A stretch of 64,000 nt of DNA. Origin: an uncultured Methylococcaceae bacterium. GTDB taxonomy: Bacteria; Pseudomonadota; Gammaproteobacteria; Methylococcales; Methylomonadaceae. Of this stretch, positions 5,689 to 41,592 are shown one piece after another. The number at the start of each line of letters is the position of its first letter. Position 1 is the stretch's first letter. The DNA is taken from NCBI GenBank assembly GCA_903945375.1, contig CAJAVP010000036.1, positions 18,659-82,658 of the forward strand. Direction: 5' to 3'. The translations under genes were made by a program, and so were the position numbers. The notes under the pieces are model-generated. The model made no database searches. It had not been told where the DNA came from and saw nothing but the letters and a program-made list of their open reading frames with translations.

Positions 5689-6432
5689 ATGTTTAATGAT
5701 GCCAATTTGATGATTCAAAAAAATCGAACTCTAAACGAAGCAGCACCGATTTTGAGCTGTTGTTTTTTTTATTTACCCAATTCAAATGTGCTGTTATGGA
5801 GCCCCGAGTTTCATACTTATGAATACTTTCTGGATAAATTAGTCTTTAAGATCGCAAGAAAGCCCAGCTTGCTGATATCTCATATCCAACGTATTTATTA
5901 TTGTTTTCATGCAGATAAAGAAGAACAATTGTTCGCGGCACTGGTCGATTTTCTTTTTATTTTAAACAAGCGTGGCGAAGCTATCAGTTGGCGTATGTTA
6001 ATGGGTGTTAAGTCTCGGCTTAATCCAGAGCGTTTTTTGCAACTAAAAAATTACTTAAAAAATGAGCAAGCCGAGCCTAATTTGTTAGTTGGCAATCATT
6101 ATTCAATTTTAACCAAAGGTTTCATCGGTGGAAATAAGCTGGTGATTCAGCATAAACCAACAGATCAATCAACCTATGATCCACTTGCTTTGGCGCGAGA
6201 TTATATCGAATACAGTCAGCTTGAGGAGGCAAAAAAACTGCTCGAACGAGCCTTGTTAGAAGATCCTGCGCGTTTGGAAATTCATCATGAGCTATTATCT
6301 CTTTATCGTTCTATGCGTGATCACGAGGGTTTTTATGATATGTTTAAGCAAGTAGCGAGGTTGGGGGTTGTTATGAACGAAGAATGGGTTGAAACAAATA
6401 CCTACTTTACAGACAGGGTTAGTAATGGATAA
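5689..6432 (+). CDS. Hypothetical protein with C-terminal TPR/FimV-C-like helices
   Basis: DPLALARDYIEYSQLEEAKKLLERALLEDPAR resembles the FimV C-terminal/TPR motif; first gene of the GTPase operon. Confidence 0.55.
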   Translation: MFNDANLMIQKNRTLNEAAPILSCCFFYLPNSNVLLWSPEFHTYEYFLDKLVFKIARKPSLLISHIQRIYYCFHADKEEQLFAALVDFLFILNKRGEAISWRMLMGVKSRLNPERFLQLKNYLKNEQAEPNLLVGNHYSILTKGFIGGNKLVIQHKPTDQSTYDPLALARDYIEYSQLEEAKKLLERALLEDPARLEIHHELLSLYRSMRDHEGFYDMFKQVARLGVVMNEEWVETNTYFTDRVSNG

Positions 6433-7636
6433 CAATAGCAATCCATTGAAAGTTGCCTTGCATGGCTTAGACGAGCGCAGTTGCAAAATGATGTCGATGT
6501 TTTTGCAGGGGCCTTGTCGCGGTGTCGCCGTTGTCGTCAACGAAAGCAGTGCCGAATGTGAAATATTTGATGCGGATTCGATCAGTGGAAAAGAATTACT
6601 CAGTAATTATTTGCAAAAGGAAATTCAAAAACCGATTGTCATTTTGTCTTTAAATACACCACAAGTAGCCTCTGCCTTTCACGTAAAAAAACCTGTCAAG
6701 ACAGAGGAAATGATAGCAGCGTTACAAAAAGCTAAAAAATCATTAGCTGCTGTAGTCGCACATGCCCCTGTCAACTCATCGGACAATACGACGAATGCAG
6801 TAATCTCTGACGTACAAGACTCCAGTAAACAAGTAGTAGAGGACAAGCTTACAATAAAGCTTCATGTCAAAACGGATGAACAAAAGAAAACCTCCAAACA
6901 TCAGGCGGCTATGCAGTTGGATGAGAAAGGTTTTGTTGGTTTTATTGGCAATGTACCTGGGTTGGATGTTAACGACCCTCGACAGTTTAGTAAGGCACAT
7001 TACAATCCTAAAGAATATTTTCAGGGTTATGTTGATTCAGCATTTAAAGTTAGTCGAGCTAAAGGGCACATTAGGCAGTTAAATTCTGGCTGGAATCCGC
7101 TGATTATTTTTCCACAGAGCGACGAGATTTGGCTTGATGTAGATGAAAGCCAGTTACGGGCGTTTTCAGGGTTGACTATTTCCAATACGCTGGGGGCAAA
7201 AATGTCCATCACGCCACTTAGTGTGGAGAGTGTTGCGATGGAGAGATCATTAGAACGCTACCAAAGCATGGATGCTTTTTTGTGGAAAGTGTCTTGTTGG
7301 GCATCGAAAGGGCGTTATCCAGGGAGTATAGATATTAATCAACCTGTTTTTTTGAAACAATGGCCGAACTTCACTCGATTACTGTTGACACCTCATGCCA
7401 TGCGAATTGCTGCTTTGTTGATTCAAGGGCCGCGAACGTTACTTAATGTGTCACAAGTACTTAATGTAAAGCCTCAGTACGTTTTTGTCTTTATTAGTTC
7501 AGCAAGTGCTTTAGGTTTGGTAGGTCAAACCCGTCGCGGAGCAGATCTTTTAGTCGAACCAGATGAAATTAAAACAAATAAAAACCAAAGTTTGCTGAGT
7601 CGTATCCTCAGTGTTTTACGTGGTAAGAAAGCTTAG
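6425..7636 (+). CDS. Receiver-like N-terminal domain, linker and conserved C-terminal domain (possibly winged helix)
   Basis: KVALHGLDE...EIFDAD...IVILS...VKKPV receiver spacing; ATG 6425 overlaps the upstream stop. Confidence 0.55.
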   Translation: MDNNSNPLKVALHGLDERSCKMMSMFLQGPCRGVAVVVNESSAECEIFDADSISGKELLSNYLQKEIQKPIVILSLNTPQVASAFHVKKPVKTEEMIAALQKAKKSLAAVVAHAPVNSSDNTTNAVISDVQDSSKQVVEDKLTIKLHVKTDEQKKTSKHQAAMQLDEKGFVGFIGNVPGLDVNDPRQFSKAHYNPKEYFQGYVDSAFKVSRAKGHIRQLNSGWNPLIIFPQSDEIWLDVDESQLRAFSGLTISNTLGAKMSITPLSVESVAMERSLERYQSMDAFLWKVSCWASKGRYPGSIDINQPVFLKQWPNFTRLLLTPHAMRIAALLIQGPRTLLNVSQVLNVKPQYVFVFISSASALGLVGQTRRGADLLVEPDEIKTNKNQSLLSRILSVLRGKKA

Positions 7637-7651
7637 TGGAATTTAAATACT

Positions 7652-8188
7652 ATGAGTCAATATAAGATTATTTTCACTGGTCCGGTTGGGGCTGGTAAAA
7701 CCACAGCGATCAATTCCATCAGTGATTTACCGCCTATAAAAACTGATGCTTCTGCGAGTGATATGGCCAAATACCGAAAAGCATCGACCACTGTGGCACT
7801 CGATTATGGTGTGATGAATTTACCCGGTGGGGAAAAATTGCATCTCTATGGAACGCCCGGTCAAGAGCGATTTGATTTTATGTGGGATATTTTGGTGACT
7901 GGCGGAATCGGTTTAGTACTCTTGCTGGATAATACACGCGCTGATCCATTCCAAGATATGCGTTTTTTTTTAGAGACCTTTGAACGGTTTATCGCAGACA
8001 CGACAGTCGCTATTGGTGTCACTCAGATGGATCTAAGTGCTAAACCCAGTATTGATGACTATCATATCCAATTGCGTGGTATGGGTATAAAACCAGCTAT
8101 TTTTGCAGTTGATGCGAGGGCAAAAAGTGACGTTTCTTTGCTCATTCAGGCCTTACTTTATTCCCTAGATCCGGGATTAGAGGGGTAG
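7652..8188 (+). CDS. Small Ras-like GTPase, MglA/CvnD family
   Basis: G1 GPVGAGKT, G2 TTVALDYG, G3 GTPGQERF, G4-like TQMD; 178 aa. Confidence 0.9.
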   Translation: MSQYKIIFTGPVGAGKTTAINSISDLPPIKTDASASDMAKYRKASTTVALDYGVMNLPGGEKLHLYGTPGQERFDFMWDILVTGGIGLVLLLDNTRADPFQDMRFFLETFERFIADTTVAIGVTQMDLSAKPSIDDYHIQLRGMGIKPAIFAVDARAKSDVSLLIQALLYSLDPGLEG

Positions 8189-23616: not shown

Positions 23617-23834
23617 GTTTTTCTTACCCAAAGCGACCACTGAGTTTTTTCAATTTTGTTTGTGTGTTACCCGATGAGTCTACTTTGCTTGTCAAATATA
23701 AAGGGGCTGATCGTTTTTATACAAGATTGTCATTTTATTTATGGTGACAAACAGTCGTTTTGATTTGATTGATAGCTTAATATCAGCAATCATTTAAAAA
23801 ACTTATATTTTTGCAATTACATCACGAGAAACCT

Positions 23835-24704
23835 ATGAATGACAAACTTATACACTATTGGCGTTTAGCTCGATTCGACCGCCCGATTGGCATTTTGATT
23901 TTACTTTGGCCATCGCTTTGGGCGCTCTGGGTCGCTGGAAATGGCAAACCGGATGCCTTAGTGCTAACAGTAATTTGCCTAGGCGTTATTGTTATGCGAG
24001 CGGCTGGCTGTGTGATTAATGACTACGCCGACCGCGATTTTGATCCGCATGTCGAACGTACCAAACAACGCCCTATTGCGGCCGGAAAAGTCAGTCCCAA
24101 AGAAGCCTTGTTAGTGTTTGCGATCTTATGCCTAATCGCTTTTGGACTTGTTTTGTTGCTCAATACATTAACGATTCTTTTATCATTCATTGGTGCTTTT
24201 CTTGCCGCAAGCTATCCTTTTATGAAACGCTATACGCATTTACCCCAAGCCTATTTAGGTATCGCTTTTGGCTGGGCTGTGCCTATGTCATTTGCTGCAC
24301 AAAGCAATCATATACCGGCTGTGGCTTGGGTTATGTATTTAGCGGTGATACTGTGGTCACTGATTTACGACACGATGTACGCCATGGTCGATAAGGCCGA
24401 CGACTTGAAAATCGGTGTAAAATCTACCGCTATTTTATTTGGTGATTACGATCGCCACATTATTGCCGCGCTACAAGTGCTTATGCTGAGTTTATTGGTA
24501 CTTGTAGGACAAATGCAGCAGTTAACTTTGCCTTATTATCTGGGCTTATTGGTCGCGGGTGGCTTATCTGTTTATCAACAAACGCTCATTTTTCACCGCA
24601 ATACCAATCAGTGTTTTAAGGCTTTTTTAAATAGCAATTGGTTGGGTATCGCTGTTTTTGTTGGTTTAGTCATCAGTTATGTGACTATTCAGTCTTCTCC
24701 TTAA
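23835..24704 (+). CDS. ubiA: 4-hydroxybenzoate polyprenyltransferase
   Basis: [45 protein letters not shown]. Confidence 0.96.
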
Positions 24705-30165: not shown

Positions 30166-30342
30166 AGTGTATTTAATAAATTCCTATCACGGTAACTGGT
30201 ATAGATACGCGCGTTGGGTTAGAATTACGCAGTTTATTTGTGATTATTTTATTGTGTCATTAAACATACGTGCGTGTATCTTGGTTACGATAAAACGAAA
30301 AAACGCATAAAAGTCTATAACAACTATCTAAGGGGCTGCTCC

Positions 30343-31863
30343 GTGAACAAAACAAAGCAACTATTCGCAGGTCTGATCTTAATGGCTTTGGCCGAGGGGA
30401 CAGCGCATGCGGACTATACGCTCAACTTAATGAAGGGGGTCACAAAAGTCAGTAATGACATTTATGACCTACATATGCTGATTTTATGGATCTGTGTAAT
30501 TATCGGTGTTGGTGTGTTTGGCACTATGTTTTATTCGATTTACCATCATCGTAAATCAAAAGGACATCAAGCTGCACAATTCCATGAAAATACAACTGTA
30601 GAAATCATTTGGACAATTATTCCCACTCTGATCCTGATTGGTATGGCAATTCCTGCGACTAAAACCTTATTGGAATTAGAGGATGTTCAAGATGCCGAAA
30701 TGTCGATTAAAGTGACGGGTTGGCAGTGGAAATGGGAATATGAATATTTAGACAACGGTATTCATTTCTTCAGTAGTCTTGATGAAGCCAGCAATAAAGC
30801 GCGTCAGGTTGGTTCGGGTATCGATCCGCGTACTGTTCCTCATTATTTGCTGAACGTCGACAAGCCGTTGGTTATCCCAACCAAGAAAAAAATCCGTTTT
30901 TTGTTTACGGCAGCCGATGTACTTCACTCTTGGTGGATTCCTGATTTAGGTTGGAAAAAGGATGCAATCCCAGGTTTTATTAATGAAGCATGGACTTCCG
31001 TTGACAATCCAGGAACTTATCGCGGTCAATGTACGGAGTTATGTGGCAAAGATCATGGCTTCATGCCGATTGTCGTGATCGCAATGGAGCAGCCCGAATA
31101 TGATGCGTGGGTTAAAAAGACACAAGAAGACGCTAAAAAAGGTGCAGATTTAAGCGATCAAAGCCATGACGAGTTGGTCTCTAAAGGTGCGGCTGTGTAC
31201 GCGAAAAACTGCTCGACTTGTCATTTGCCTGACGGCAAAGGTGTACCTGGAGCATTTCCTGCCATTACGGGTAGTGCGCTGGTCAAAGGTGATATCAATG
31301 CACAAGTTAGTCTTGTTGTGAACGGTAAAGGTGCGATGCCAGCGTTTGGTAAAATGTTAAAAGCGGATGAGTTAGCGCAAGTTATTACTTATACACGCAA
31401 TGCCTTAGGCAATGCTGTCGGTGATCATGTTCAACCGAAAGCTATCCAAGAACTTTTGCCTAAGCCATCGAGTGCGGCTGCGCCAAAAGCGACACCCGCA
31501 ACCGTCGAAAAGATTGAGCCAATGGCCGATATGAGCAAAGATGACTTATTGGTTTTAGGCAAGACCATTTATAACAGTAACTGTTCATCATGTCATCAGG
31601 CAGAAGGACAAGGCAATCCGCCGATGTTCCCTGCATTAAAAGGCAGTGCTGTCGTCTTAGGCGATATCAATGCTCAAATTAATTTAATGTTAAACGGCAA
31701 AGGTATGATGCCAGGTTTTGGACATTCCTTAAAAGCCAATGAATTTGCTGCTGTGGTTAGCTATACGCGCAATGGTTTAGGCAATGCGGTTAATGATGTC
31801 GTTCAGCCATCTGTTATACAACAACTGCAAGCCGCTTTGCCGCCAGAACAGAATGATGATTAA
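30343..31863 (+). CDS. coxB: Cytochrome c oxidase subunit II with two C-terminal cytochrome c domains
   Basis: CuA motifs DVLHSW and CTELCGKDHGFMP; heme c motifs CSTCH and CSSCH; GTG start at 30343. Confidence 0.95.
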   Translation: MNKTKQLFAGLILMALAEGTAHADYTLNLMKGVTKVSNDIYDLHMLILWICVIIGVGVFGTMFYSIYHHRKSKGHQAAQFHENTTVEIIWTIIPTLILIGMAIPATKTLLELEDVQDAEMSIKVTGWQWKWEYEYLDNGIHFFSSLDEASNKARQVGSGIDPRTVPHYLLNVDKPLVIPTKKKIRFLFTAADVLHSWWIPDLGWKKDAIPGFINEAWTSVDNPGTYRGQCTELCGKDHGFMPIVVIAMEQPEYDAWVKKTQEDAKKGADLSDQSHDELVSKGAAVYAKNCSTCHLPDGKGVPGAFPAITGSALVKGDINAQVSLVVNGKGAMPAFGKMLKADELAQVITYTRNALGNAVGDHVQPKAIQELLPKPSSAAAPKATPATVEKIEPMADMSKDDLLVLGKTIYNSNCSSCHQAEGQGNPPMFPALKGSAVVLGDINAQINLMLNGKGMMPGFGHSLKANEFAAVVSYTRNGLGNAVNDVVQPSVIQQLQAALPPEQNDD

Positions 31864-31915
31864 TCGTTACTGTTAATAGATTTAATTCTTTTTATAAATT
31901 TTTGAGGTATTAACT

Positions 31916-33538
31916 ATGTCCGCTGTTATAGCTGAACATGACGATCATCACGAACATGATGATCATGCTCACGGCCCTGAGAAGGGTATTTTAAGATGGA
32001 TCATCACGACGAATCACAAAGATATTGGTACGTTGTATTTGTTTTTTGCCTTAGCGATGTTCTTTGTCGGCGGGATAATGGCGATGATTATCCGTGCTGA
32101 GTTGTTTGAACCCGGTATGCAATTTGTGCAACCGCAGTTTTTCAATTCAATGACGACAATGCACGCATTGGTGATGGTGTTTGGTGCGGTTATGCCGGCA
32201 TTTGTTGGCTTAGCTAACTGGATGATTCCCATGATGATTGGTGCGCCTGATATGGCGTTGCCGCGCATGAACAACATGAGCTTTTGGGTGTTGGTAGCTG
32301 GCGTGTTAATGTTGGCAAGTACCTTATTCATGGAAGGTGGTGCGCCAGCGGGTGGTTGGACACTCTATCCTCCCTTAGTATTGCAAACCGGTAAGGCCTT
32401 GCCATTTGCTATTTTCTCTGTGCATTTGCTGGGTATTTCTTCCATTATGGGAGCGATTAACATTATTGCGACTATTTTCAATATGCGTGCTCCAGGCATG
32501 ACATTGATGAAAATGCCATTATTTGTTTGGACTTGGTTGATTACCGCATTCTTGCTAATTGCCGTCATGCCGGTGTTTGCAGGTGCAGTAACGATGTTGC
32601 TGACAGATAGATTTTTTGGTACTAGCTTTTTTGATGCAGCAGGCGGCGGTGATCCTGTATTGTATCAACATATTTTCTGGTTCTTCGGTCATCCTGAAGT
32701 TTATATCATGATTTTGCCCACCTTTGGTGTGGCTTCGACCATTATCCCCGTGTTTGCTCGTAAACCATTATTTGGTTATAGCTCAATGGTTTATGCAACA
32801 GCCTCGATTGCGTTTTTATCGTTTATCGTTTGGGCGCATCATATGTTCACTGTTGGAATGCCTGTGGCAGGTGAGTTGTACTTCATGTATGCCACCATGT
32901 TAATCGCAATTCCAACTGGCGTAAAAGTATTCAACTGGACTGCCACCATGTGGAAGGGTGCGATGACCTTTGAAACGCCAATGTTGTTTTCCATTGCCTT
33001 TGTGGTTTTGTTTACGATTGGCGGATTTACGGGATTGATGATGTCAATTGCCCCCTCTGATTTCCAATACCATGACACGTATTTTATTGTTGCACATTTC
33101 CATTACACCTTAGTGCCTGCGTCAGTCTTTATTTTGATGGCGGCGGGTTACTATTGGCTGCCTAAATGGACGGGACATATGTATAACGAAAAAATCGGTC
33201 AGCTCCATTTTTGGTTATCTACGGTGTCAGTGAATATTCTGTTCTTTCCTCAGCATTTCTTAGGATTGGCGGGCATGCCGCGCCGAATTCCTGATTATGC
33301 GGTGCAATTTGCTGATTGGAATATGATTTCCAGTATTGGGGGATTTATCTTTGGTGCCAGTCAGTTGCTGTTTTTATATATCGTTATTGACACCATTCGT
33401 GGTGGTACAGGCGAGAAAGTATCGGATGAGGTCTGGGAAGATGCGCATAAACATGGCTTGGAATGGACGTTACCCTCTCCGCCGCCGTACCATAGCTTCA
33501 CGACCCCACCAACCATTATTCCAACCGAGCATATTTAG
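31916..33538 (+). CDS. coxA: Cytochrome c oxidase subunit I (A-type)
   Basis: [26 protein letters not shown]. Confidence 0.97.
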
Positions 33539-33554
33539 TCGGTTAAATAAGCTG

Positions 33555-33584
33555 TGATACGTTAGTCGAATGGCTAACGTATCA
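33555..33584. other. Intergenic stem-loop after coxA
   Basis: TGATACGTTAG...CTAACGTATCA perfect 11-bp stem, no U-tract. Confidence 0.5.
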
Positions 33585-33593
33585 GGTGAGAAT

Positions 33594-33692
33594 ATGAAAA
33601 CAAAAACTAAAAATATACTAACTGCTTTAGTTCTTGGGCTGATTGCTTTTGGCGTCTACGCGTTTGCGGTTGTTAAAGCGATCTCTCAATGA
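33594..33692 (+). CDS. Small 32-aa single-TM protein, probable oxidase accessory/assembly peptide (not in the ORF track)
   Basis: MKTKTKNILTALVLGLIAFGVYAFAVVKAISQ*; GAG RBS-like motif upstream; TGA overlaps the ctaG ATG (ATGA). Confidence 0.65.
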   Translation: MKTKTKNILTALVLGLIAFGVYAFAVVKAISQ

Positions 33693-34225
33693 ACGATGAT
33701 ATTAACCAAAAAAACACAAAGTTAGTTCGCAAACTATTGCTGATTGCCGTGGCGATGTTTGGCTTCGGCTATGCGCTAGTACCACTGTACGATGTGCTAT
33801 GTGATATCACCGGACTAAATGGTAAAGTTGAGGGAAGTGCAGTTAAAGAAGTGGTTTATCCTATTGATAAAAATAGGGAAATTACTGTTGAATTCATCAC
33901 CTCATTGAATGAATCCGCACCAATGGAGTTTCGTGCGGAAACCAAAAAATTAAAAATTCATCCCGGTGAATATTACACCGTGAATTTTTATGCCGAAAAC
34001 AAGACTGATAAGGTCATGATAGCTCAGGCGATTCCAAGTATCTCTCCTGGATTAGCCGCTGAATATTTTAAAAAAACCGAGTGTTTTTGTTTTACAGAAC
34101 AGACGTTCAAAGCGCGGGAAGGCAAGATGATGCCCGTACGTTTTGTTGTTAATCCTGAGCTGCCATCACAATATAAAACGATCACTCTTGCTTATACATT
34201 TTTTGATAAAACTAAAACACAGTGA
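33689..34225 (+). CDS. ctaG: Cytochrome c oxidase copper assembly protein CtaG/Cox11
   Basis: FGYALVPLYDVLC, YFKKTECFCF. Confidence 0.95.
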   Translation: MNDDINQKNTKLVRKLLLIAVAMFGFGYALVPLYDVLCDITGLNGKVEGSAVKEVVYPIDKNREITVEFITSLNESAPMEFRAETKKLKIHPGEYYTVNFYAENKTDKVMIAQAIPSISPGLAAEYFKKTECFCFTEQTFKAREGKMMPVRFVVNPELPSQYKTITLAYTFFDKTKTQ

Positions 34226-34242
34226 AAGGATAGGAGAAAATT

Positions 34243-35127
34243 ATGTCTTCAAGTCAAACTTATTATATCCCGCACAAAGCGACATGGCCGGTTATGGCAA
34301 CGGGTGGTCTAGCGATGTTATTGGCTGGATTTGCAAATTACCTCAATGGCTCATCCATTGGATCAACTCTGATGATTTTGGGGTTTGCAATTTTTATTGT
34401 CATGTTAGCGGGTTGGTTTACATTACAGTCGACTGAAAGCGAAGCCGGTATGTATAGTCACCAAGTGGGTATTTCTTACCGTATGGGAATGATGTGGTTC
34501 ATCTTTTCTGAAGTGATGTTTTTCGCTGTATTTTTTGGAACTTTATGGTACACCCGTAATTTATCAGTGCCTTGGTTGGGCGGTGAAGGTGTAGGTGCGG
34601 CAACTAAAGAATTTTTATGGCCCAATTTTGAAGCAACCTGGCCTACTAATGGTCCAGGTAAATTAGTCAATGGGTTACCAACAGCCGATGGCGAATTTGA
34701 GAAAATGAGTGCTTGGGGGCTGCCCTTTTTGAACACATTGATTCTGTTAAGTAGTGGCGTGACCTGTACTTGGGCACATCACGGCTTGCTTGCCAATCAC
34801 CGCGATCAGTTGATTAAAGGCTTGATTGCCACGGTGGCATTAGGATTTTTGTTCGTTGCCTTTCAAGCGATTGAATATCATGAAGCGTATACTGAAATGG
34901 GCTTAACATTAGGTTCAGGGATTTATGGCTCGACCTTTTTCATGTTGACTGGCTTTCATGGTTTTCACGTTTGCGTTGGTGCGATTATCTTAAGTGTCGT
35001 GTTATTCCGTAGCTCAAAAGGTCATTTCAAACCAGAGAATCACTTTGCATTTGAAGCCGCCGCTTGGTATTGGCACTTTGTTGACGTGGTTTGGTTAGGT
35101 TTGTTTATCTTTGTTTATATTATGTAA
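34243..35127 (+). CDS. coxC: Cytochrome c oxidase subunit III
   Basis: WFIFSEVMFF, TGFHGFHV, WYWHFVDVVW. Confidence 0.96.
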   Translation: MSSSQTYYIPHKATWPVMATGGLAMLLAGFANYLNGSSIGSTLMILGFAIFIVMLAGWFTLQSTESEAGMYSHQVGISYRMGMMWFIFSEVMFFAVFFGTLWYTRNLSVPWLGGEGVGAATKEFLWPNFEATWPTNGPGKLVNGLPTADGEFEKMSAWGLPFLNTLILLSSGVTCTWAHHGLLANHRDQLIKGLIATVALGFLFVAFQAIEYHEAYTEMGLTLGSGIYGSTFFMLTGFHGFHVCVGAIILSVVLFRSSKGHFKPENHFAFEAAAWYWHFVDVVWLGLFIFVYIM

Positions 35128-35145
35128 GTCGATATCAAATCACTG

Positions 35146-35180
35146 AAAAAGAGCGTTGTCAGAGACAACGCTTTTTTTTT
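35146..35180. terminator. Bidirectional intrinsic terminator
   Basis: AAAAA-G-AGCGTTGTC-aga-GACAACGCT-TTTTTTTT. Confidence 0.85.
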
Positions 35181-35188
35181 GCCAACCC

Positions 35189-35455
35189 TTATGGCGGACT
35201 GATGATCGTAGCGGTGCTTTTGTTACTGAGTATGTTTAAACCAATGCCATGCGGTTGGAATAAACCCGTCGCCATCGCAATAAAAATAAAAATAAACAGT
35301 ATAATGGACAAAGAAATCCGAAACGTCAGGGCTTTAACCATTTTGGCTGATTTTTCCTGACTTTGTTCTTTGTTTTTGATCAAATTATAGAGGGCAACCC
35401 CTAAGCTACTAAGGATCAGCAAGAAAACAAAAATCGCGATGCTTTTAATAATCAT
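35189..35455 (-). CDS. DUF2909 / twin-TM small protein typical of cox clusters
   Basis: ILSSLGVALYNL...MVKALTFRISLSI...G..QPHG; ATG at 35455. Confidence 0.85.
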   Translation of the reverse strand: MIIKSIAIFVFLLILSSLGVALYNLIKNKEQSQEKSAKMVKALTFRISLSIILFIFIFIAMATGLFQPHGIGLNILSNKSTATIISPP

Positions 35456-35583
35456 AATAAAAAATTTTGTTGATTTACGTTTTAGGGTCAATGCGATGAC
35501 GTGTGTTAAATCTAAGTCGAGCGCATTATGTTTATGAAGGGTGGCTGTTCGAAGTGTCAATATAATAAAGTGCTTAACCAGTT

Positions 35584-36300
35584 ATGAATATTAAAATTAT
35601 ACCGACTTTGGCTTACCTGCTGATTTTACCCCTGTTGCTTAGTTTAAGTCATTGGCAATGGCAACGTGCACAAGAAAAAACGCAATGGCTTCATGATCAA
35701 GAGCAAGCCATGAATGCAGACGTTTTGGATTTAAATACCTTGATAAACGATGATTGGCGGGCTTTACGTTACAGGCCAATACGCGCTAAAGGGCATTATG
35801 ATTCATCTCATCAATTTTTGATAGATAATCAAATCAGCGCAGGTAAGCCCGGCTATTATGTGATGACCCCCTTTATTTTTGCAAACCAACCGGATACGGC
35901 ATCGAATAAAGCGGTGCTGGTTAATAGAGGTTGGCTTCCTTTGGGGCAGAATAGGACAGTTTTGCCGGTGTTGTCGGTGACTGAACAGCAAATTACCATT
36001 GAGGGACGCATTAATTACTTTCCTAGTGTTGGCGTAAAATTGGCGGGAGCAGAGCAACCGACGGACACCTGGCCGTCGGTGGTGCAAGTCGTCAACAGCG
36101 ATATTTTAGCGAAAAAACTTAATTATCCATTGACTACGGTTCAGCTTGAATTAGATAAACGGATGTCTGAAGGCTATAAACGAGAATGGCAGGTGTCAAC
36201 TCTGATGCGACCTGAACAACATAACGCCTATGCCCTGCAATGGCTGGGATTGGCGTTGACACTGACTTTTTTATATTTTTGGTATAGTTTTAAAAAATAA
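35584..36300 (+). CDS. SURF1 family cytochrome oxidase assembly protein
   Basis: WQWQRAQEK, VLVNRGW, HNAYALQW. Confidence 0.93.
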   Translation: MNIKIIPTLAYLLILPLLLSLSHWQWQRAQEKTQWLHDQEQAMNADVLDLNTLINDDWRALRYRPIRAKGHYDSSHQFLIDNQISAGKPGYYVMTPFIFANQPDTASNKAVLVNRGWLPLGQNRTVLPVLSVTEQQITIEGRINYFPSVGVKLAGAEQPTDTWPSVVQVVNSDILAKKLNYPLTTVQLELDKRMSEGYKREWQVSTLMRPEQHNAYALQWLGLALTLTFLYFWYSFKK

Positions 36301-37034
36301 TGGATCAACATAAAAAGAATCAACGCTTAATTATAATTATTTTTGGAATGACGATAATTCCCTTTCTGATTGCATTAGGTTTAAACACAAATCTCACTTG
36401 GTTGAAAAGCCATGTCAACAAAGGCCAATTAATAGAGCCGATTATTACGACCACGCATGATGATTGGCTTGGCTTTGATGACTTCTCGCAACAGAATCTT
36501 AAAGAATTGCAAGGTCATTGGTTAATCGTAAACCTGATTCCCAGTCAACACTGTCAGGCACTCTGTTTAGAGGCCTTATTAAAAACGAAGCAATTACGGC
36601 TTATGTTGGGTAAAGATTTATCACGGACTCGGCGTGTAGTTATGGTTTTTAATGATATTCCTGCTGAAATGACACGTCAGTGGTGGTTAAAAGATAGTCT
36701 ATTATGGCGACTTCAACTCACCCAAAATCAAACGGATGAGACTCTTTATCGCACACTTCAGCAAGAAGATAGTTTGCTTGACGAGGCCTTAATCAATCGA
36801 TTGCTGGCTAATGAAAATCCAGCGCTGGCACTACGCTCGGATCTTATCAGAGTGAAACCAAATGCTAAGCTAATAGAAAAGTTGACGCAGCTTAGGCAGG
36901 GGGCAATACCTGAAGGGATGCTGCTTCTGATTGATCCACTAGGAAATATCATGATGCAATATGAGTCAGGGTTTAATCCTTATGATGTCAAAACGGATTT
37001 ATTGCATCTATTAAGAATTTCACAAATCGGATAA
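36300..37034 (+). CDS. SCO-like / thioredoxin-fold oxidase assembly protein
   Basis: N-terminal TM, N.GQLI, CQALC, LIDPLGNIMMQY...DL..LLRISQIG. Confidence 0.75.
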   Translation: MDQHKKNQRLIIIIFGMTIIPFLIALGLNTNLTWLKSHVNKGQLIEPIITTTHDDWLGFDDFSQQNLKELQGHWLIVNLIPSQHCQALCLEALLKTKQLRLMLGKDLSRTRRVVMVFNDIPAEMTRQWWLKDSLLWRLQLTQNQTDETLYRTLQQEDSLLDEALINRLLANENPALALRSDLIRVKPNAKLIEKLTQLRQGAIPEGMLLLIDPLGNIMMQYESGFNPYDVKTDLLHLLRISQIG

Positions 37035-37039
37035 TTAGA

Positions 37040-38947
37040 ATGTTTAGAAAAATAACTTTGTTTAGCCTGATGTTGGCCGTGATAACCAGTATTTTGGTTG
37101 GTTATATGGGAATGCCTGTCACCCAATGGGGACAGTGGTTCGATGTCAACCTATTATCAATAGTTAACGGGATGCAATTAGGCTTAATGGGTCTACTTGT
37201 CATGCCGGTGATATTGGTGTGGCGTGATCGTCAGCGAACGCCAGTGATAATAAGCCTTTCAGTGATATGGTTATTCTTAGCATTGGAATTTATGTTGCAC
37301 AACAACGGGATAATTGCGCTAAAGCAACCAGTTTTTGCAGCGACGGATAGGCTTTTAGCTATGTTCGTCTTTTGGATTTTGTATAGCCTTTATTTGCGAA
37401 CGGATAGTGCCGCCATAAAAGACACCCAAAGCACGGTTTCCAGAGTCTGGGTTTGTTTGGCGATGTTCGTCTTGTATGTCCAAATTAAACTCGGTGTTTG
37501 GACTAGCGTGAATCATGCGGGTAGCGTTTGCCAAGGCTTTCCGTTATGTAATGGGCAATGGTGGCCGCAAGCTGATTATCTTGCTCTGTTTAACCTAGGC
37601 GAGCTGATTCAAAATACGCTTAAGGGGGTAACAACAGATCTGTCATATACCGCCCAAATAGCCATAAATTACTCACATCGCATTGGCGCGATTGTCACGT
37701 TTATGTTGCTGACCTTAGTTGGTTTTAAAGCGATGTCAGGGGCTGCAAATCGAAAAATGAGTCGGGCCGGATTAATTCTGAGTGCTTTATTATTCATCCA
37801 AACGGCACTTGGGGTTTTGGGCTTTAAGCTAATGCCGTCTCACTGGGTCGCACTTGCACATCATCTGGTTGCCGAAATCATGATGTTACCTTTGCTGGCT
37901 ATTTATTTTTATAGCCGTCGAAAATTTACCTATGTTCCGTTAGCCGATCAAGCCTTCGATGTACAATCCGAAGGCGCGATCGATACGGCATTACTGGATC
38001 AAGGTGATAGAGAGTCCGAGCCAGAATCGCTTTATCTACGCTTACAATCACAGCTAAAGCGGACACGTTCAGGTCTAGGTGAACTTGTTGCCAATTTGGC
38101 TTTGGGTCAAAAAGGAATTGATGACGATGTACTAGAGGATTTAGAAGCCAATTTGATTATGGCTGATCTGGGTATTAACGTGACCCAACAAATCATCAAT
38201 CATCTGACACAACAACTGGATCGTCAGCAGTTGCGTGATCCCGTTCAAGTCACAGCGGCCTTAAAAGAAGAATTACTCAATATATTAAATCCTTGTAGCC
38301 ATGTTTTACAGATACCCAAACAAGCAACTCCATTCGTGATTTTAGTAGTGGGTGTCAACGGTGCAGGTAAAACCACGACGATTGGTAAACTTGCTAAACG
38401 TTTGCAGATGCAAGGTCATTCGGTCATGTTGGCGGCCGGAGACACCTTCCGAGCAGCGGCTGTTGAACAACTGCAAACTTGGGGGGAGCGCAACGCCATT
38501 CCGGTTGTTGCTCAGCATACGGGCGCAGATTCGGCTTCAGTGATTTATGATGCGGTGCAATCGGCACAAGCTAAAGGGATTGATGTCTTGATTGCAGATA
38601 CGGCAGGACGATTGCACACCAAATCGAATTTAATGGACGAGCTAAAAAAAGTCACACGCATTATGGCAAAATTGGATGCCAATGCGCCGCATGAAGTGTT
38701 ATTAGTACTCGATGCGGGTACCGGTCAAAATGCGTTGTCCCAAGCAAAACAGTTTAATGAAACGGTGCCCTTAACAGGTTTGGTGCTGACCAAACTGGAC
38801 GGTACGGCAAAAGGCGGGGTTATTTTTGCGTTAGCCAGACAAATGGGAATTCCTATCCGATTTATAGGAATAGGGGAAGGAATTGATGATTTACAAGATT
38901 TTGATGCCAAAATGTTTGTTGATGCCTTATTTACTCAAGATAATTAA
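37040..38947 (+). CDS. ftsY: Fusion of a degenerate COX15/CtaA heme A synthase-like membrane domain and the SRP receptor FtsY NG domain
   Basis: CQGFPLC, SHRIGA and AHH in the N-terminal part; GVNGAGKTT, DTFRAAA, DTAGR and TKLDGTAKGG in the C-terminal part; single 635-aa ORF. Confidence 0.88.
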   Translation: MFRKITLFSLMLAVITSILVGYMGMPVTQWGQWFDVNLLSIVNGMQLGLMGLLVMPVILVWRDRQRTPVIISLSVIWLFLALEFMLHNNGIIALKQPVFAATDRLLAMFVFWILYSLYLRTDSAAIKDTQSTVSRVWVCLAMFVLYVQIKLGVWTSVNHAGSVCQGFPLCNGQWWPQADYLALFNLGELIQNTLKGVTTDLSYTAQIAINYSHRIGAIVTFMLLTLVGFKAMSGAANRKMSRAGLILSALLFIQTALGVLGFKLMPSHWVALAHHLVAEIMMLPLLAIYFYSRRKFTYVPLADQAFDVQSEGAIDTALLDQGDRESEPESLYLRLQSQLKRTRSGLGELVANLALGQKGIDDDVLEDLEANLIMADLGINVTQQIINHLTQQLDRQQLRDPVQVTAALKEELLNILNPCSHVLQIPKQATPFVILVVGVNGAGKTTTIGKLAKRLQMQGHSVMLAAGDTFRAAAVEQLQTWGERNAIPVVAQHTGADSASVIYDAVQSAQAKGIDVLIADTAGRLHTKSNLMDELKKVTRIMAKLDANAPHEVLLVLDAGTGQNALSQAKQFNETVPLTGLVLTKLDGTAKGGVIFALARQMGIPIRFIGIGEGIDDLQDFDAKMFVDALFTQDN

Positions 38948-38952
38948 ATCTT

Positions 38953-39609
38953 ATGTTAAAGTTTGAAAATGTCACAAAACGCTATCCTGAAGCGGGAGAT
39001 GTTTTACGCAGTATTAGTTTTCATTTAAGGCATGGTGAGCTGGCTTTTTTAACCGGTCATTCGGGTGCAGGAAAAAGCACCTTACTAAAGCTGATTGCCG
39101 GTATTGAGCGTTGTAATCGGGGGGTGATTTTATTAGACGGTGAAAATCTCAGTGCCGCCAAAGAAAATCAACTGCCTTTTTTACGTCGCAAAATGGGCTT
39201 TATTTATCAAGACTATAAATTGCTTCAGGATAGAACGGTTTTTGATAATGTGGCGTTACCTTTGGTGATAGCGGGTTATGGGCATCAGGAAATTACTCGT
39301 CGCGTGAGAGCATCCCTCGATAAAGTGGGTTTGTCTGGTAAAGAAAAAAAATTTCCTATGGCTTTATCAGGTGGCGAGCAACAGCGCGTTGGCATTGCGC
39401 GTGCGGTTGTCAATAAACCGCCAATTATTATTGCGGATGAGCCGACTGGCAATCTTGATCCTGAGTTAGCCGCAGAAATTATGCGTTTGTTTGAAAGTTT
39501 TCAGCAAGTCGGCGTTACCGTATTAATTGCCTCACATGATATCTCCTTAATTACTAAAATGAATCATCGTGTTTTAAAACTTGACCACGGTCAATTGGTT
39601 GCGGATTAG
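38953..39609 (+). CDS. ftsE: Cell division ATP-binding protein FtsE
   Basis: [32 protein letters not shown]; located between ftsY and ftsX. Confidence 0.96.
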
Positions 39610-39612
39610 CTT

Positions 39613-40644
39613 ATGAAGCCCAAATACAGACGACATCAAACTCGAGAGGTTAAACAACCCCGATATACCCGAGATGCCAAACAAGACATCAAGCGCACGG
39701 CGGCTGCGGGCGGTAGTCTGAGAGATAAGCTTAAAGCCTATCGAGATCTTCATGCCCATGCGCTGTTTTCCAGTTTGGGACGCTTAGTCTCATCCCCCTT
39801 TAACACCATCATGACGGTGGTTGTTTTGTCGATTGCCATCTCATTAGCTGGTGGATTCTACCTAGTACTGAAAAATTTACAGCAATTTACGGGTAATTTA
39901 GAAACCAGCGCCCAAATTTCTCTTTTTCTAAAAGACGAAATTACCGAAGCTCATGCCAAGCAACTGGCTGAAAATATCCGTCAAAATCCCGCCATTCAAT
40001 CTGTCAAATTAATTACCAAAGAACAGGCTCTCGCCGAATTTAAAACCTATAGTGGTTTTGGTTCGGCAATTAGTGTGCTGAAAACGAATCCTCTGCCGAT
40101 AGTGGTGCAAGTTTTGCCCCGAGATACTTTGGAAAATAAAGAGGGCTTTGAGGAATTGTTACAAACGTTCCAGCAATCTGTTGAGGTTGATTCCGCACAA
40201 TTCGATCTAAAATGGGTACAGCGCTTGCAATCTATTATGGCAGTTTCGCAACGTGGCGCGGCATTATTGAATCTTATGCTAGGTGTTGCGGTAATTTTTA
40301 TTGCAGGTAATACCATCCGTTTAGAATTAAACAACCGTCGTGAGGAAGTTATCATTGCAAAATTGGTCGGCGCGACCAGCGCTTTTATTCAACGTCCCTT
40401 TTTGTACACCGGCTTTTGGATTGGTTTTTTGTCGGGTGTCACGTCATGGTTTACTGTGACGATGATGATGTTGATCCTAATGCAGCCGGTCGAACATTTA
40501 TCGACCTTGTACGGTGGTAATTTTCATCTGTTATTTTTTGGCTTTTTAGATACGCTAGAGTTATTAGCGATTTCCTCTGGCTTGGGCGTATTAGGCTCTT
40601 GGGCGGTTTTAATGCACCAACTACGCTTAACTAAAGTGATGTGA
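39613..40644 (+). CDS. ftsX: Cell division permease FtsX
   Basis: NPLP, GNTIRL...REEV.I.KLVGAT..FI.RPFLY.G. Confidence 0.95.
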   Translation: MKPKYRRHQTREVKQPRYTRDAKQDIKRTAAAGGSLRDKLKAYRDLHAHALFSSLGRLVSSPFNTIMTVVVLSIAISLAGGFYLVLKNLQQFTGNLETSAQISLFLKDEITEAHAKQLAENIRQNPAIQSVKLITKEQALAEFKTYSGFGSAISVLKTNPLPIVVQVLPRDTLENKEGFEELLQTFQQSVEVDSAQFDLKWVQRLQSIMAVSQRGAALLNLMLGVAVIFIAGNTIRLELNNRREEVIIAKLVGATSAFIQRPFLYTGFWIGFLSGVTSWFTVTMMMLILMQPVEHLSTLYGGNFHLLFFGFLDTLELLAISSGLGVLGSWAVLMHQLRLTKVM

Positions 40645-40675
40645 GCATCAATTTAGTGGTCTACGAGTAAAATTA

Positions 40676-40702
40676 TTAGCACTCTTAAATTGAGAGTGCT
40701 AG
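40676..40702 (+). promoter_or_regulatory. CIRCE element (HrcA operator) upstream of rpoH
   Basis: TTAGCACTC-TTAAATTGA-GAGTGCTAG versus consensus TTAGCACTC-N9-GAGTGCTAA, 17/18 match. Confidence 0.9.
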
Positions 40703-40734
40703 AATTTGCCAACTTTTTTATTCAGGAGGCTGTT

Positions 40735-41592
40735 ATGAATAACGCAATCGCATTACCGATAAATTTATCCGTAGGAACTTTTGACGCGTATTTAAATTTA
40801 GTCAAGCAAATGCCCATGCTGTCGTCTGAGCAGGAACGCGAACTTACCTTACGTTATAGAGACGAAGGCGATCTTGTTGCTGCGCGGGAGCTAGTTATGA
40901 GTAATTTACGTTTTGTCGTGCATGTCGCAAGAGGTTACAGTGGCTATGGCTTGTCTATGCCGGATATCATTCAGGAAGGCAACGTCGGCTTAATGAAAGC
41001 GGTAAAGCGTTTTGATCCGGATATGGGCGTACGTTTGGTGTCATTTGCCGTGCATTGGATAAAATCCGAAATTCATGAGTACGTCATCAAAAACTGGGGA
41101 ATTGTCAAAGTCGCGACGACGAAAGCCCAACGTAAATTATTTTTTAACTTACGTAAATCTAAAGAAGACTTAGGATGGCTGTCTGATGTCGAAGCGGTAG
41201 CGATTGCTAACGATTTGAATGTTGATGTTAAAGTGGTTTATGAAATGGAGAAACGTTTAGGGAATAAAGATATCTCTTTTGATATGTCAGTAGATGATTC
41301 GAATGAAGATAGTTATGTTGCTCCCGTTAATTATTTGCAACAACATGGCGCAGATCCGGCCGTATTGCTTGAAAATGCAGATTGGGGTGGGCATGAACAG
41401 GATTTGTTATCTGAAGCGATGGCAACGCTAGATGAACGTAGTTTTGATATTCTATCTAGTCGGTGGTTGTCGGAAAAAAAAGCAACCTTGCATGAGCTTG
41501 CTGAGCGTTACCATGTTTCCGCTGAGAGAATTCGTCAACTTGAGCAAAATGCAATGAAAAAAATAAAAGCGGCGGTGGTATTAGCCGCTTAA
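40735..41592 (+). CDS. rpoH: RNA polymerase sigma-32
   Basis: RpoH box QRKLFFNLRK; SNLRFVVHVARGY; GGAGG RBS before ATG 40735. Confidence 0.97.
   Translation: MNNAIALPINLSVGTFDAYLNLVKQMPMLSSEQERELTLRYRDEGDLVAARELVMSNLRFVVHVARGYSGYGLSMPDIIQEGNVGLMKAVKRFDPDMGVRLVSFAVHWIKSEIHEYVIKNWGIVKVATTKAQRKLFFNLRKSKEDLGWLSDVEAVAIANDLNVDVKVVYEMEKRLGNKDISFDMSVDDSNEDSYVAPVNYLQQHGADPAVLLENADWGGHEQDLLSEAMATLDERSFDILSSRWLSEKKATLHELAERYHVSAERIRQLEQNAMKKIKAAVVLAA

What the first reader, a model, noticed from the sequence alone, without database searches (positions are those of the whole stretch)
37040..38947. SRP receptor FtsY fused to a half-degenerate heme A synthase (CtaA) membrane domain
Seen: one 635-aa ORF. 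About 37040-37920 is a multi-TM CtaA-like domain. About 38030-38947 is a complete FtsY NG domain, including the amphipathic LYLRLQSQLKRTRSGL helix, and the usual acidic A domain is absent. The CtaA C-half keeps the Cys pair (CQGFPLC) and both His (SHRIG, AHH), equivalent to B. subtilis H216/H278 that ligate cofactor heme b. The N-half lacks the CxxWPxC loop, the ExxHR motif and the H123 equivalent needed for substrate heme binding and catalysis. Inference: a catalytically dead, possibly heme-binding polytopic anchor makes FtsY an integral membrane protein. It might tie co-translational targeting to heme or oxidase assembly, or to specific (intracytoplasmic) membranes.
Basis: partly seen in the sequence, partly recalled or inferred. 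Interest (0 to 1): 0.8.

Follow-up and report, generated by a model that had tools for sequence, protein, structure and literature searches.

The report
SRP receptor anchored by decayed heme-A-synthase
The only SRP receptor (FtsY) of this methane-oxidising bacterium is made as one protein with an eight-helix membrane domain that descends from heme A synthase but has lost its catalytic half, so the old enzyme most likely now serves as a permanent membrane anchor.

Summary
Window 37040-38947 (+) is one 635-aa ORF: an 8-TM CtaA/COX15 domain, a disordered acidic linker, the amphipathic membrane-targeting helix and a complete FtsY NG domain. It is the genome's only ftsY. The same protein recurs in many independent assemblies, and no in-frame start codon could give a free FtsY.

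The fusion is not peculiar to this genome. It is ancestral to most of the order Methylococcales. In many lineages the fused CtaA keeps all ten key residues, and in five genomes it is the only CtaA, so it must be active there. It probably arose by one inversion: unfused sister families have ctaA-ctaB next to a convergent ftsYEX-rpoH.

What is special here is decay. This lineage, with two close metagenomic relatives, lost the ECL1 Cys loop, Glu57, His60 and His123. It kept the C-half Cys pair and both heme-b histidines. A conserved standalone CtaA (H60N type) exists elsewhere in the genome. The N-half is still under purifying selection (dN/dS about 0.2) and the predicted fold is still that of CtaA.

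Other relatives lost the C-half ligands too, or every signature residue, yet keep a polytopic N-terminal domain. The common retained role is therefore membrane anchoring. Links to heme, oxidase assembly or intracytoplasmic membranes remain speculation. I found no paper on this fusion.

The parts
37040..38947 (+). Single 635-aa ORF: CtaA-derived 8-TM domain, linker, FtsY (stop codon included)
37040..37429 (+). N-half (residues 1-130), TM1-4. This is the degenerate former catalytic four-helix bundle. It lacks the ECL1 Cys loop and the E57, H60 and H123 equivalents. It is still under purifying selection (dN/dS 0.17-0.20).
37430..37924 (+). C-half (residues 131-295), TM5-8, the former heme-b cofactor bundle. 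It keeps the Cys pair C164/C170 (37529-37549), His213 (37676-37678) and His274 (37859-37861). dN/dS 0.10-0.13.
37925..38029 (+). Acidic linker (residues 296-330), predicted disordered (pLDDT below 50), fast-evolving (dN/dS 0.41-0.60), with no in-frame start codon
38030..38077 (+). Amphipathic membrane-targeting helix at the start of the N domain (LYLRLQSQLKRTRSGL). It matches GFFGRLKSQLSKTRTGL of an unfused relative.
38078..38944 (+). FtsY NG domain: SRP54_N at residues 355-412, GTPase at 431-631. G1-G5 motifs start at residues 438, 468, 520, 584 and 610. The model is 60-61% identical to E. coli FtsY NG, with TM-score 0.89.
36300..37034 (+). PA0111/PP0108-like thioredoxin-like membrane protein, the usual gene before ctaA in the cox cluster. 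It ends 5 nt before the fusion ORF.
30274..36300 (+). cox cluster upstream: coxB (with cytochrome c domains), coxA, cox11, coxC, DUF2909 (minus strand), SURF1
38953..41592 (+). ftsE, ftsX and rpoH directly downstream (the ftsYEX-rpoH unit)

Best explanation
This gene encodes the cell's only SRP receptor as an integral membrane protein.

Origin (inferred). An ancestor of the methanotrophic Methylococcales joined the last gene of the aa3-oxidase assembly cluster, ctaA (type 1.1 heme A synthase), in frame to ftsY. The likeliest route is one inversion spanning ctaB through ftsY. The fusion replaced FtsY's short N-terminal lipid-binding motif with the eight helices of CtaA, whose C-terminus faces the cytoplasm.

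Later history. Where a second, standalone CtaA (H60N type) covers heme A synthesis, the fused enzyme half is free to decay. In this lineage the N-terminal substrate-heme bundle lost its Cys loop, Glu and both His. It is kept as four packed helices. The C-terminal bundle keeps its bis-His heme-b site and its Cys pair.

Function. The domain most likely works as a permanent polytopic anchor, probably still carrying heme b as a structural cofactor. It holds the NG domain at the membrane through a flexible linker of about 35 residues. The retained amphipathic helix and the NG domain then carry out the normal SRP/SecYEG cycle.

Shown versus inferred.
- Shown: the architecture, sole-copy status, distribution, residue losses, selection pattern and predicted fold.
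- Inferred: loss of heme A synthase activity, heme b binding, the anchor function and the inversion.
For: Architecture and copy number
- One ORF with both domains.
- It is the sole ftsY in a genome rated 100% complete; the other SRP-type GTPases are ffh and flhF.
- No internal in-frame start codon between codons 286 and 349.
- The identical protein occurs in many assemblies, plus two relatives with 82-84% TM-domain identity and the same architecture.

Distribution
- The fusion was found in 38 of 41 relatives by TM-domain search. Genomes without a hit still have FtsY open frames of 617-662 aa; G017's contig is truncated.
- All 121 genomes of the order carry CtaA. Most carry a fused copy plus a standalone copy.
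- Five genomes (G026, G034, G029, G048, G128) have only the fused copy, at 252-275 bits, and all ten key residues are intact.

Decay series
- PF02628 scores of the fused domain in the own genus run from 149 down to 41 bits. A standalone CtaA of 187-199 bits is present in 10 of 11 genomes.
- Residue table and tree: N-half His pair intact in 89 of 148 sequences, Fitch minimum 16 changes. C-half His pair and C-half Cys pair each intact in 144 of 148, 2 changes each.

Selection and constraint
- dN/dS: N-half 0.17-0.20, C-half 0.10-0.13, linker 0.41-0.60, NG 0.02-0.03.
- The standalone CtaA is 76-80% identical across genera. The fused TM domain is only 29-46% identical.

Structure
- AF2 model of the TM domain: pLDDT 88.9, pTM 0.88, eight helices.
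- The only significant PDB matches are heme A synthases: 6A2J (TM-score 0.65) and 8AW5 (0.70).
- The NG model matches E. coli FtsY NG at 60-61% identity, TM-score 0.89.

Synteny supporting an inversion
- G039: ctaA>ctaB>(one gene)> <rpoH<ftsX<ftsE<ftsY.
- G033: ftsY>ftsE>ftsX>rpoH> (two genes) <ctaB<ctaA.

Literature
- The N-terminal bundle is the presumed catalytic site, the C-terminal bundle binds heme b through two His, and the ECL1 cysteines are important for activity (PMC8239418).
- FtsY permanently tethered by a TM domain is functional in vivo, and natural FtsYs with a true TM helix exist (PMC2780400, citing Zelazny et al. 1997).
Against: - No protein-level or transcript evidence.
- Heme binding by the C-half is inferred from conserved ligands only.
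- Natural CtaA variants with single substitutions at 'invariant' positions exist (H60N, E57K+H123N, H278D; PMC8239418 Table 1). Loss of one residue alone does not prove inactivity. The case here rests on losing five residues plus the whole ECL1 loop.
- If the domain were only an anchor, near-universal retention of the C-half His and Cys pairs (144 of 148) needs a further reason, either structural heme or an unknown function.
- The predicted post-inversion position of ctaB, downstream of rpoH on the opposite strand, is empty in every fused genome inspected. The inversion is therefore consistent with the data but not demonstrated.
- G013 (92% complete) shows a decayed fused domain with no standalone CtaA detected. 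This is probably assembly incompleteness.
Confidence: 0.75

Rival explanations
1. The surviving C-half is more than ballast. The heme-b bundle with its periplasmic Cys pair gives the SRP receptor a redox- or heme-responsive anchor, or a docking site for oxidase-assembly factors. Co-translational insertion of CoxA or other heme proteins would then be coupled to heme supply.
For: - The C-half His pair and Cys pair are each retained in 144 of 148 fused proteins, while the N-half His pair was lost at least several times.
- C-half dN/dS (0.10-0.13) is lower than N-half dN/dS.
- The gene still sits at the end of the cox assembly cluster, 5 nt after the thioredoxin-like PA0111 homologue.
Against: - G020, G002 and G014 (same genus) lost the C-half Cys pair and the H216 equivalent.
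- G115 lost every signature residue, yet keeps the fusion as its only FtsY.
- FtsY is the general receptor for all SRP substrates, not only for oxidase subunits.
- Retention of the heme ligands is equally explained by heme being needed for the bundle to fold.
- There is no experimental or co-occurrence evidence for any coupling.
Confidence: 0.15
2. The domain is still a heme A synthase. The intact C-half (Cys pair plus two His) resembles the 4-TM archaeal class A enzyme (type 1.4, Aeropyrum pernix). It could work in an oligomer, with one subunit holding heme b and another holding heme O.
For: - 4-TM CtaA proteins with one Cys pair are a recognised class (PMC8239418 Table 1).
- The Aquifex enzyme structure is a trimer (8AW5 title).
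- The C-half ligands are strictly kept in this lineage (alignment).
Against: - A highly conserved standalone CtaA is present.
- Decay of the fused domain was seen almost only where that copy was detected; the one exception, G013, is only 92% complete. Fused domains that are the only CtaA are always fully intact.
- Relatives lose the C-half ligands as well.
- The fused TM domain evolves much faster than the standalone enzyme.
Confidence: 0.07
3. The fusion is only a translational convenience. The polypeptide is cut in the disordered linker, which releases a conventional peripheral FtsY (NG plus amphipathic helix) and a separate membrane remnant.
For: - The linker is disordered (pLDDT below 50) and weakly constrained (dN/dS 0.4-0.6).
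- The amphipathic targeting helix used by free FtsY is fully retained.
- From my own knowledge, E. coli FtsY is known to be cleaved N-terminally in vivo.
Against: - The fusion has been kept in frame across a whole order for a very long time, including lineages where the TM domain has lost all enzymatic signatures. That is hard to explain if the TM part has no role in the mature protein.
- The N-half is under purifying selection.
- No conserved cleavage motif is visible in the variable linker.
Confidence: 0.1
4. Assembly or annotation artefact: two adjacent genes were merged by a sequencing error.
For: One same-genus MAG (G016, 88% complete) shows the gene split into 354 + 261 aa.
Against: - The identical ORF is indexed in 58 blocks of the collection.
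- Independent runs give 631-aa orthologues.
- Hundreds of fused homologues exist, including complete genomes of cultured strains: Methylotuvimicrobium alcaliphilum, Methylocaldum marinum, Methylomarinum vadi.
- There is no other ftsY in the genome.
Confidence: 0.01

Closest known systems
E. coli-type FtsY (TIGR00064; PDB 6CQP, 2YHS, 2QY9)
   Same: - Complete NG domain: 60-61% identity and TM-score 0.89 to E. coli NG.
- All G motifs present.
- Amphipathic membrane-targeting helix before the N domain.
- ftsYEX-rpoH gene order.
   Different: - No acidic A domain and no N-terminal lipid-binding motif. An 8-TM domain and a linker of about 35 aa take their place.
- The receptor is predicted to be permanently integral rather than cycling between cytosol and membrane.
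Membrane-tethered FtsY: engineered NG-LacY fusions (Zelazny et al. [quoted passage not shown]
   Same: NG held at the membrane by a covalently attached transmembrane segment. The engineered version is functional in vivo.
   Different: - The anchor here is a whole recruited enzyme fold of eight helices with a probable heme-b site, not a single helix.
- It occurs in a proteobacterial order.
Type 1.1 (class B) heme A synthase CtaA: B. subtilis 6A2J, and the cox-operon CtaA of proteobacteria
   Same: - Same 8-TM two-bundle fold (TM-score 0.65 to 6A2J, 0.70 to 8AW5).
- Same genomic position after SURF1 and the PA0111-like gene.
- C-half Cys pair and bis-His site retained.
   Different: - N-half lacks the ECL1 loop with its Cys pair, plus the E57, H60, R61 and H123 equivalents.
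- The Pfam match covers only profile positions 141-319.
- ctaB no longer follows it.
- It is fused to FtsY.
Intact CtaA-FtsY fusions of other Methylococcales (for example G026, G034, G128; Methylocaldum, Methylomonas)
   Same: Orthologous gene, same junction, same operon context.
   Different: - Those keep all ten key CtaA residues and score 240-275 bits on PF02628.
- In five genomes they are the only CtaA.
- The window protein scores 72 bits and has a dead N-half.

Membership tests
FtsY, SRP receptor (TIGR00064 equivalog) | Whole-protein score above the curated cut-off, with SRP54_N and SRP54 GTPase domains | tested here: met
   369.9 bits against a cut-off of 260.7. PF02881 and PF00448 match at E 3e-13 and 1.5e-77.
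FtsY, SRP receptor (TIGR00064 equivalog) | GTPase motifs G1-G5 intact | tested here: met
   GVNGAGKTT at 438, DTFRAA at 468, DTAGR at 520, TKLD at 584, GIGEG at 610.
FtsY, SRP receptor (TIGR00064 equivalog) | It is the receptor paralogue of the genome (distinct from Ffh and FlhF) and lies in ftsYEX synteny | tested here: met
   It is the only hit above cut-off in the genome; the others are ffh and flhF. ftsE and ftsX follow directly.
FtsY, SRP receptor (TIGR00064 equivalog) | GTP-dependent complex with Ffh/4.5S RNA and SecYEG docking | not testable with these tools
   Needs biochemistry or complementation of an E. coli ftsY depletion strain.
Heme A synthase CtaA/COX15 (PF02628) | Eight TM helices forming two homologous four-helix bundles | tested here: met
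   AF2 model with pLDDT 88.9 and eight helices. The top PDB matches are 6A2J and 8AW5 over 313-324 columns.
Heme A synthase CtaA/COX15 (PF02628) | C-terminal bundle bis-His heme-b site (H216/H278 equivalents) | tested here: met
   H213 and H274 are present and invariant in 111 of 111 closest homologues.
Heme A synthase CtaA/COX15 (PF02628) | N-terminal bundle His pair (H60/H123 equivalents) and Glu57 | tested here: not met
   The aligned positions are Asn, Asp and Ser, and the ExxHR helix is deleted.
Heme A synthase CtaA/COX15 (PF02628) | ECL1 cysteine pair (needed for activity in type 1 enzymes) | tested here: not met
   A deletion of about 45 aa removes the CPDWPxC loop. Its importance is stated in PMC8239418.
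Heme A synthase CtaA/COX15 (PF02628) | Conversion of heme O to heme A | not testable with these tools
   Needs expression in a ctaA-null host and heme HPLC.
Naturally or artificially TM-anchored SRP receptors | NG domain covalently joined to TM segment(s), with NG on the cytoplasmic side | tested here: met
   Eight helices put the C-terminus on the same side as the N-terminus. Basic residues cluster at MFRK, DRQR and SRRK. The Cys-pair loop corresponds to the periplasmic ECL3.

The most novel reading that the evidence does not exclude
The fused domain is a working heme-b module of the SRP receptor. Its heme or disulfide state would modulate FtsY activity or placement, or recruit heme and oxidase-assembly factors. 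Membrane-protein targeting in methanotrophs would then be tied to respiratory cofactor status. In lineages with an intact CtaA, heme A would be handed to nascent CoxA at the receptor itself.
Probability: 0.1. Interest if true: 0.85.

Novelty: new variant of a known kind. Interest (0 to 1): 0.6.

Why it matters
- It would be a natural case in which a whole order of Proteobacteria runs co-translational targeting with an SRP receptor that can never leave the membrane. That bears on the long debate over whether soluble FtsY has any role.
- It is a clean example of an enzyme recruited as a structural part. Because the only FtsY now depends on it for anchoring, the domain cannot be lost. Its catalytic half decays repeatedly wherever a second heme A synthase exists, while the heme-b half is far more durable.
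- The series from fully intact to fully eroded domains gives ready-made natural mutants for asking what each half of CtaA contributes to folding and heme binding.
- The lineages with only the fused copy show that heme A synthase tolerates a 35-kDa cytoplasmic passenger.
- Genetically tractable relatives carry the fusion. Methylotuvimicrobium alcaliphilum carries it with both N-half His lost (protein P0111). The questions are therefore directly testable.

Tried and rejected
- Single-sequence phmmer of the TM domain against PDB sequences found nothing relevant. Only the structure-based search recovered CtaA.
- Literature searches for FtsY with CtaA, COX15, heme A synthase, methanotroph or Methylococc found no paper describing the fusion.
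- My first reading, that the C-half Cys/His are invariant and heme binding is therefore essential, was weakened. It rested on homologues chosen for similarity to this domain. Same-genus genomes without a BLAST hit turned out to have lost those residues while keeping the fusion.
- A link between the fusion and copper monooxygenase or intracytoplasmic membranes was rejected as untestable here. The unfused families f9 and f10 also have AMO/PMO-family genes.
- The UbiA-family gene in the window (23811-24704) is UbiA proper, not a second heme O synthase.
- The promoter and terminator scan gave nothing above chance between coxB and rpoH.
- The expected post-inversion ctaB downstream of rpoH was not found in seven fused genomes.
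Full report
**1. Observation**

Window 37040..38947 (+) is a single 635-aa ORF.

- Pfam finds COX15-CtaA at residues 95-283 (71.6 bits, gathering score 29.9). It matches only profile positions 141-319 of 322.
- Pfam also finds SRP54_N (355-412) and the SRP54 GTPase domain (431-631, E 1.5e-77).
- NCBIfam's ftsY equivalog scores 369.9 bits against a cut-off of 260.7.
- The gene lies between the aa3-oxidase assembly cluster and ftsE-ftsX-rpoH. Upstream are coxB, coxA, cox11, coxC, DUF2909, SURF1 and a PA0111-like thioredoxin-like protein that ends 5 nt before the ORF.

**2. Is it real?**

- The assembly (3.59 Mb, rated 100% complete) has no other ftsY. The two weaker SRP-GTPase hits are ffh and flhF.
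- The identical 635-aa protein is indexed in 58 blocks of the public collection.
- Two 631-aa orthologues from separate sequencing runs have the same architecture.
- No in-frame ATG, GTG or TTG lies between codons 286 and 349, so no free FtsY with an intact N domain can be initiated internally.

**3. Distribution and origin**

The fusion is ancestral to most of the order.

- A TM-domain search hit 38 of 41 relatives, mostly in open frames of 650-700 aa.
- Genomes without a hit still have FtsY open frames of 617-662 aa.
- Named homologues all come from Methylococcales: Methylovulum, Methylobacter, Methylomonas, Methylosarcina, Methylomarinum, Methylotuvimicrobium alcaliphilum, Methylococcus and Methylocaldum. 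One record is annotated 'cytochrome oxidase assembly family protein/cell division protein FtsY'.
- The own genome carries pmoA.

Two families of the same GTDB order (f9, f10) are unfused.

- Their cluster ends ctaA-ctaB(-sco).
- The ftsY-ftsE-ftsX-rpoH unit lies immediately beyond it in convergent orientation.
- One inversion from the 3' end of ctaA to the 5' end of ftsY would create the fusion.
- The unfused FtsY begins MFGFGKKKK..., a lipid-binding type motif, followed by about 25 residues and then GFFGRLKSQLSKTRTGL. In the fusion only the part from that helix onward survives.
- ctaB is not where a simple inversion would leave it in any fused genome inspected. In this genome it sits alone on another contig. 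The inversion is therefore consistent with the data but not proven.

**4. The fusion began with a working enzyme**

- In 121 genomes of the order, every genome has PF02628 matches.
- Five genomes (G026, G034, G029, G048, G128; 94-100% complete) have only the fused copy.
- That copy scores 252-275 bits over the full profile and keeps all ten key residues: C35, C42, E57, H60, R61, H123, C191, C197, H216, H278 in B. subtilis numbering.
- G026 carries coxB and coxA, and G128 carries coxC, immediately upstream of the fused gene in the loci inspected. The fused CtaA must therefore be the active heme A synthase there. This is an inference.
- Many two-copy genomes also keep an intact fused domain.

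**5. What is special in this window**

This protein and its two close relatives lack five N-half features. An alignment with intact relatives shows a deletion of about 45 aa that removes the ECL1 loop (CPDWPxC) and the ExxHR helix. The H123 equivalent is Asp.

The C-half keeps the following residues:

| Residue here | Motif | B. subtilis equivalent |
|---|---|---|
| C164 / C170 | CQGFPLC | C191 / C197 |
| H213 | SHRIG | H216 |
| H274 | AHH | H278 |

The literature held here says three things (PMC8239418):

- The C-terminal bundle binds heme b through two His.
- The N-terminal bundle is the presumed catalytic site.
- The ECL1 cysteines, unlike those of ECL3, are important for activity.

Single natural substitutions at 'invariant' sites exist. 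Loss of all five residues plus the loop, however, makes catalytic death very likely.

**6. The decay is part of a series**

- Within the own GTDB genus, the fused domain's PF02628 score runs from 149 down to 41 bits (72 here).
- A standalone CtaA of 187-199 bits is present in 10 of 11 genomes.
- Some lineages lost the N-half His but kept the Cys loop, for example M. alcaliphilum with H60R and H123Q.
- Others deleted the loop but kept both His. These two states cannot derive from each other, so there were at least two independent events.
- G020, G002 and G014 lost the C-half Cys pair and the H216 equivalent. G115 lost every signature residue while keeping a polytopic N-terminal domain of about 300 aa on its only FtsY.

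State counts on a FastTree ML tree of 148 fused proteins:

| Character | Intact | Fitch minimum changes |
|---|---|---|
| N-half His pair | 89 of 148 | 16 |
| N-half Cys pair | 77 of 148 | 5 |
| C-half His pair | 144 of 148 | 2 |
| C-half Cys pair | 144 of 148 | 2 |

These counts depend on one tree and on the alignment of divergent loops, so they are rough.

**7. Selection and structure**

dN/dS against the two close relatives:

| Segment | dN/dS |
|---|---|
| N-half | 0.17-0.20 |
| C-half | 0.10-0.13 |
| Linker | 0.41-0.60 |
| NG | 0.02-0.03 |

- The dead half is still maintained.
- Across genera, the fused TM domain is 29-46% identical to this one, the standalone CtaA 76-80% and NG 67-83%.
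- AlphaFold2 on the TM domain gives pLDDT 88.9 and pTM 0.88, with eight helices.
- Foldseek's only significant PDB matches are B. subtilis CtaA 6A2J (TM-score 0.65) and Aquifex heme A synthase 8AW5 (0.70), over 313-324 columns.
- In the full-length model, the linker 295-329 is disordered, 331-341 is a helix, and NG matches E. coli FtsY NG (60-61% identity, TM-score 0.89).
- Eight helices, basic residues at MFRK, DRQR and SRRK, and the Cys loop at the position of periplasmic ECL3 all place NG in the cytoplasm.

**8. The other heme A synthase**

- G000:C31 encodes a 322-aa CtaA outside any cox cluster.
- It and 120 of 120 homologues have the ECL1 Cys pair, E57, R61, H123, H216 and H278. They have Asn at the H60 position and a short ECL3 without cysteines.
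- This matches the catalogued 'type 1.3, class C, H60N' variant (PMC8239418 Table 1).
- Its strong conservation, and the fact that decay of the fused domain is seen almost only where it is present, argue that it is the working synthase in this genome. This is an inference.

**9. Mechanism**

The best reading, with a probability of about 0.75, is a permanent polytopic anchor for the sole SRP receptor. The anchor is made from an ex-enzyme whose catalytic bundle is dead and whose cofactor bundle probably still holds heme b for folding stability. The amphipathic helix and NG domain work as in other FtsYs.

There are precedents. FtsY tethered by a TM domain is functional in vivo, and some Gram-positive and archaeal FtsYs have a true TM helix (PMC2780400).

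Rivals are:

- a regulatory or coupling role for the heme-b half (about 0.15, not exclusive with the anchor reading);
- cleavage in the linker (about 0.1);
- residual synthase activity by oligomerisation, like the 4-TM archaeal enzymes (about 0.07);
- an artefact (about 0.01).

**10. Novelty**

- The fusion is visible in databases. JGI labels the homologues 'fused signal recognition particle receptor', a generic label that is not evidence that the CtaA part was recognised. One NCBI record names both parts.
- Earlier agents of this scan reported it in other genomes with a complete CtaA.
- I found no paper on it.
- What this window adds is the half-decayed state and, through comparison, the whole decay series with its asymmetry.
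- I class it as a new variant of a known kind (a membrane-anchored SRP receptor whose anchor is a pseudoenzyme), with interest 0.6.

Noticed in passing
G000:C31:57311-58204 (-), locus L018 7270-8238: The standalone CtaA has Asn at the H60-equivalent position in this genome and in 120 of 120 homologues. It has a Cys pair only in ECL1 and a short ECL3. It fits the catalogued 'type 1.3 / H60N' class, previously listed for Acidimicrobiaceae and proteobacterial MAGs. It is not in a cox cluster; its neighbours are a GCV_T/YgfZ-like gene and a large transglycosylase.
   Followed up: partly
window 36300-37034 (+): A PA0111/PP0108-family thioredoxin-like membrane protein with the motif HCQALC ends 5 nt before the fusion ORF. 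It is conserved at this position in both fused and unfused clusters. It might act on the periplasmic Cys pairs of CtaA.
   Followed up: no
L023 (G016:C13) 5947-7011 and 7043-7828: In one same-genus MAG (88% complete) the fusion is split into 354 aa and 261 aa just after the amphipathic helix, at a Lys/Arg-rich run. This is a frameshift or an assembly error.
   Followed up: no
L065 (G115:C43), 616-aa ORF: This FtsY carries an N-terminal polytopic domain that has lost every CtaA signature residue and is no longer recognised by PF02628. The genome still has the standalone CtaA.
   Followed up: partly
window 30274-31863 (+): coxB carries C-terminal c-type cytochrome domains (hits to cytochrome c6, c551 and ccoP-like models), i.e. 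a caa3-like subunit II.
   Followed up: no
G000:C62:1957-2793 (-), locus L056: The heme O synthase gene ctaB is solitary on another contig, next to a YbiB/TrpD-like gene, rather than after ctaA as in unfused relatives.
   Followed up: partly
window 37286-37300 (residues 83-87, ALEFMLH): The only His of the N-half (H87), with Glu83 four residues before it, is conserved in the three N-half-dead sequences. Position 83 is Gln in about 93% of the wider family. The significance is unknown.
   Followed up: no
L020 (G033) and L021 (G039): In the unfused families the cox cluster and ftsYEX-rpoH are adjacent and convergent. This arrangement could give the fusion by one inversion.
   Followed up: partly
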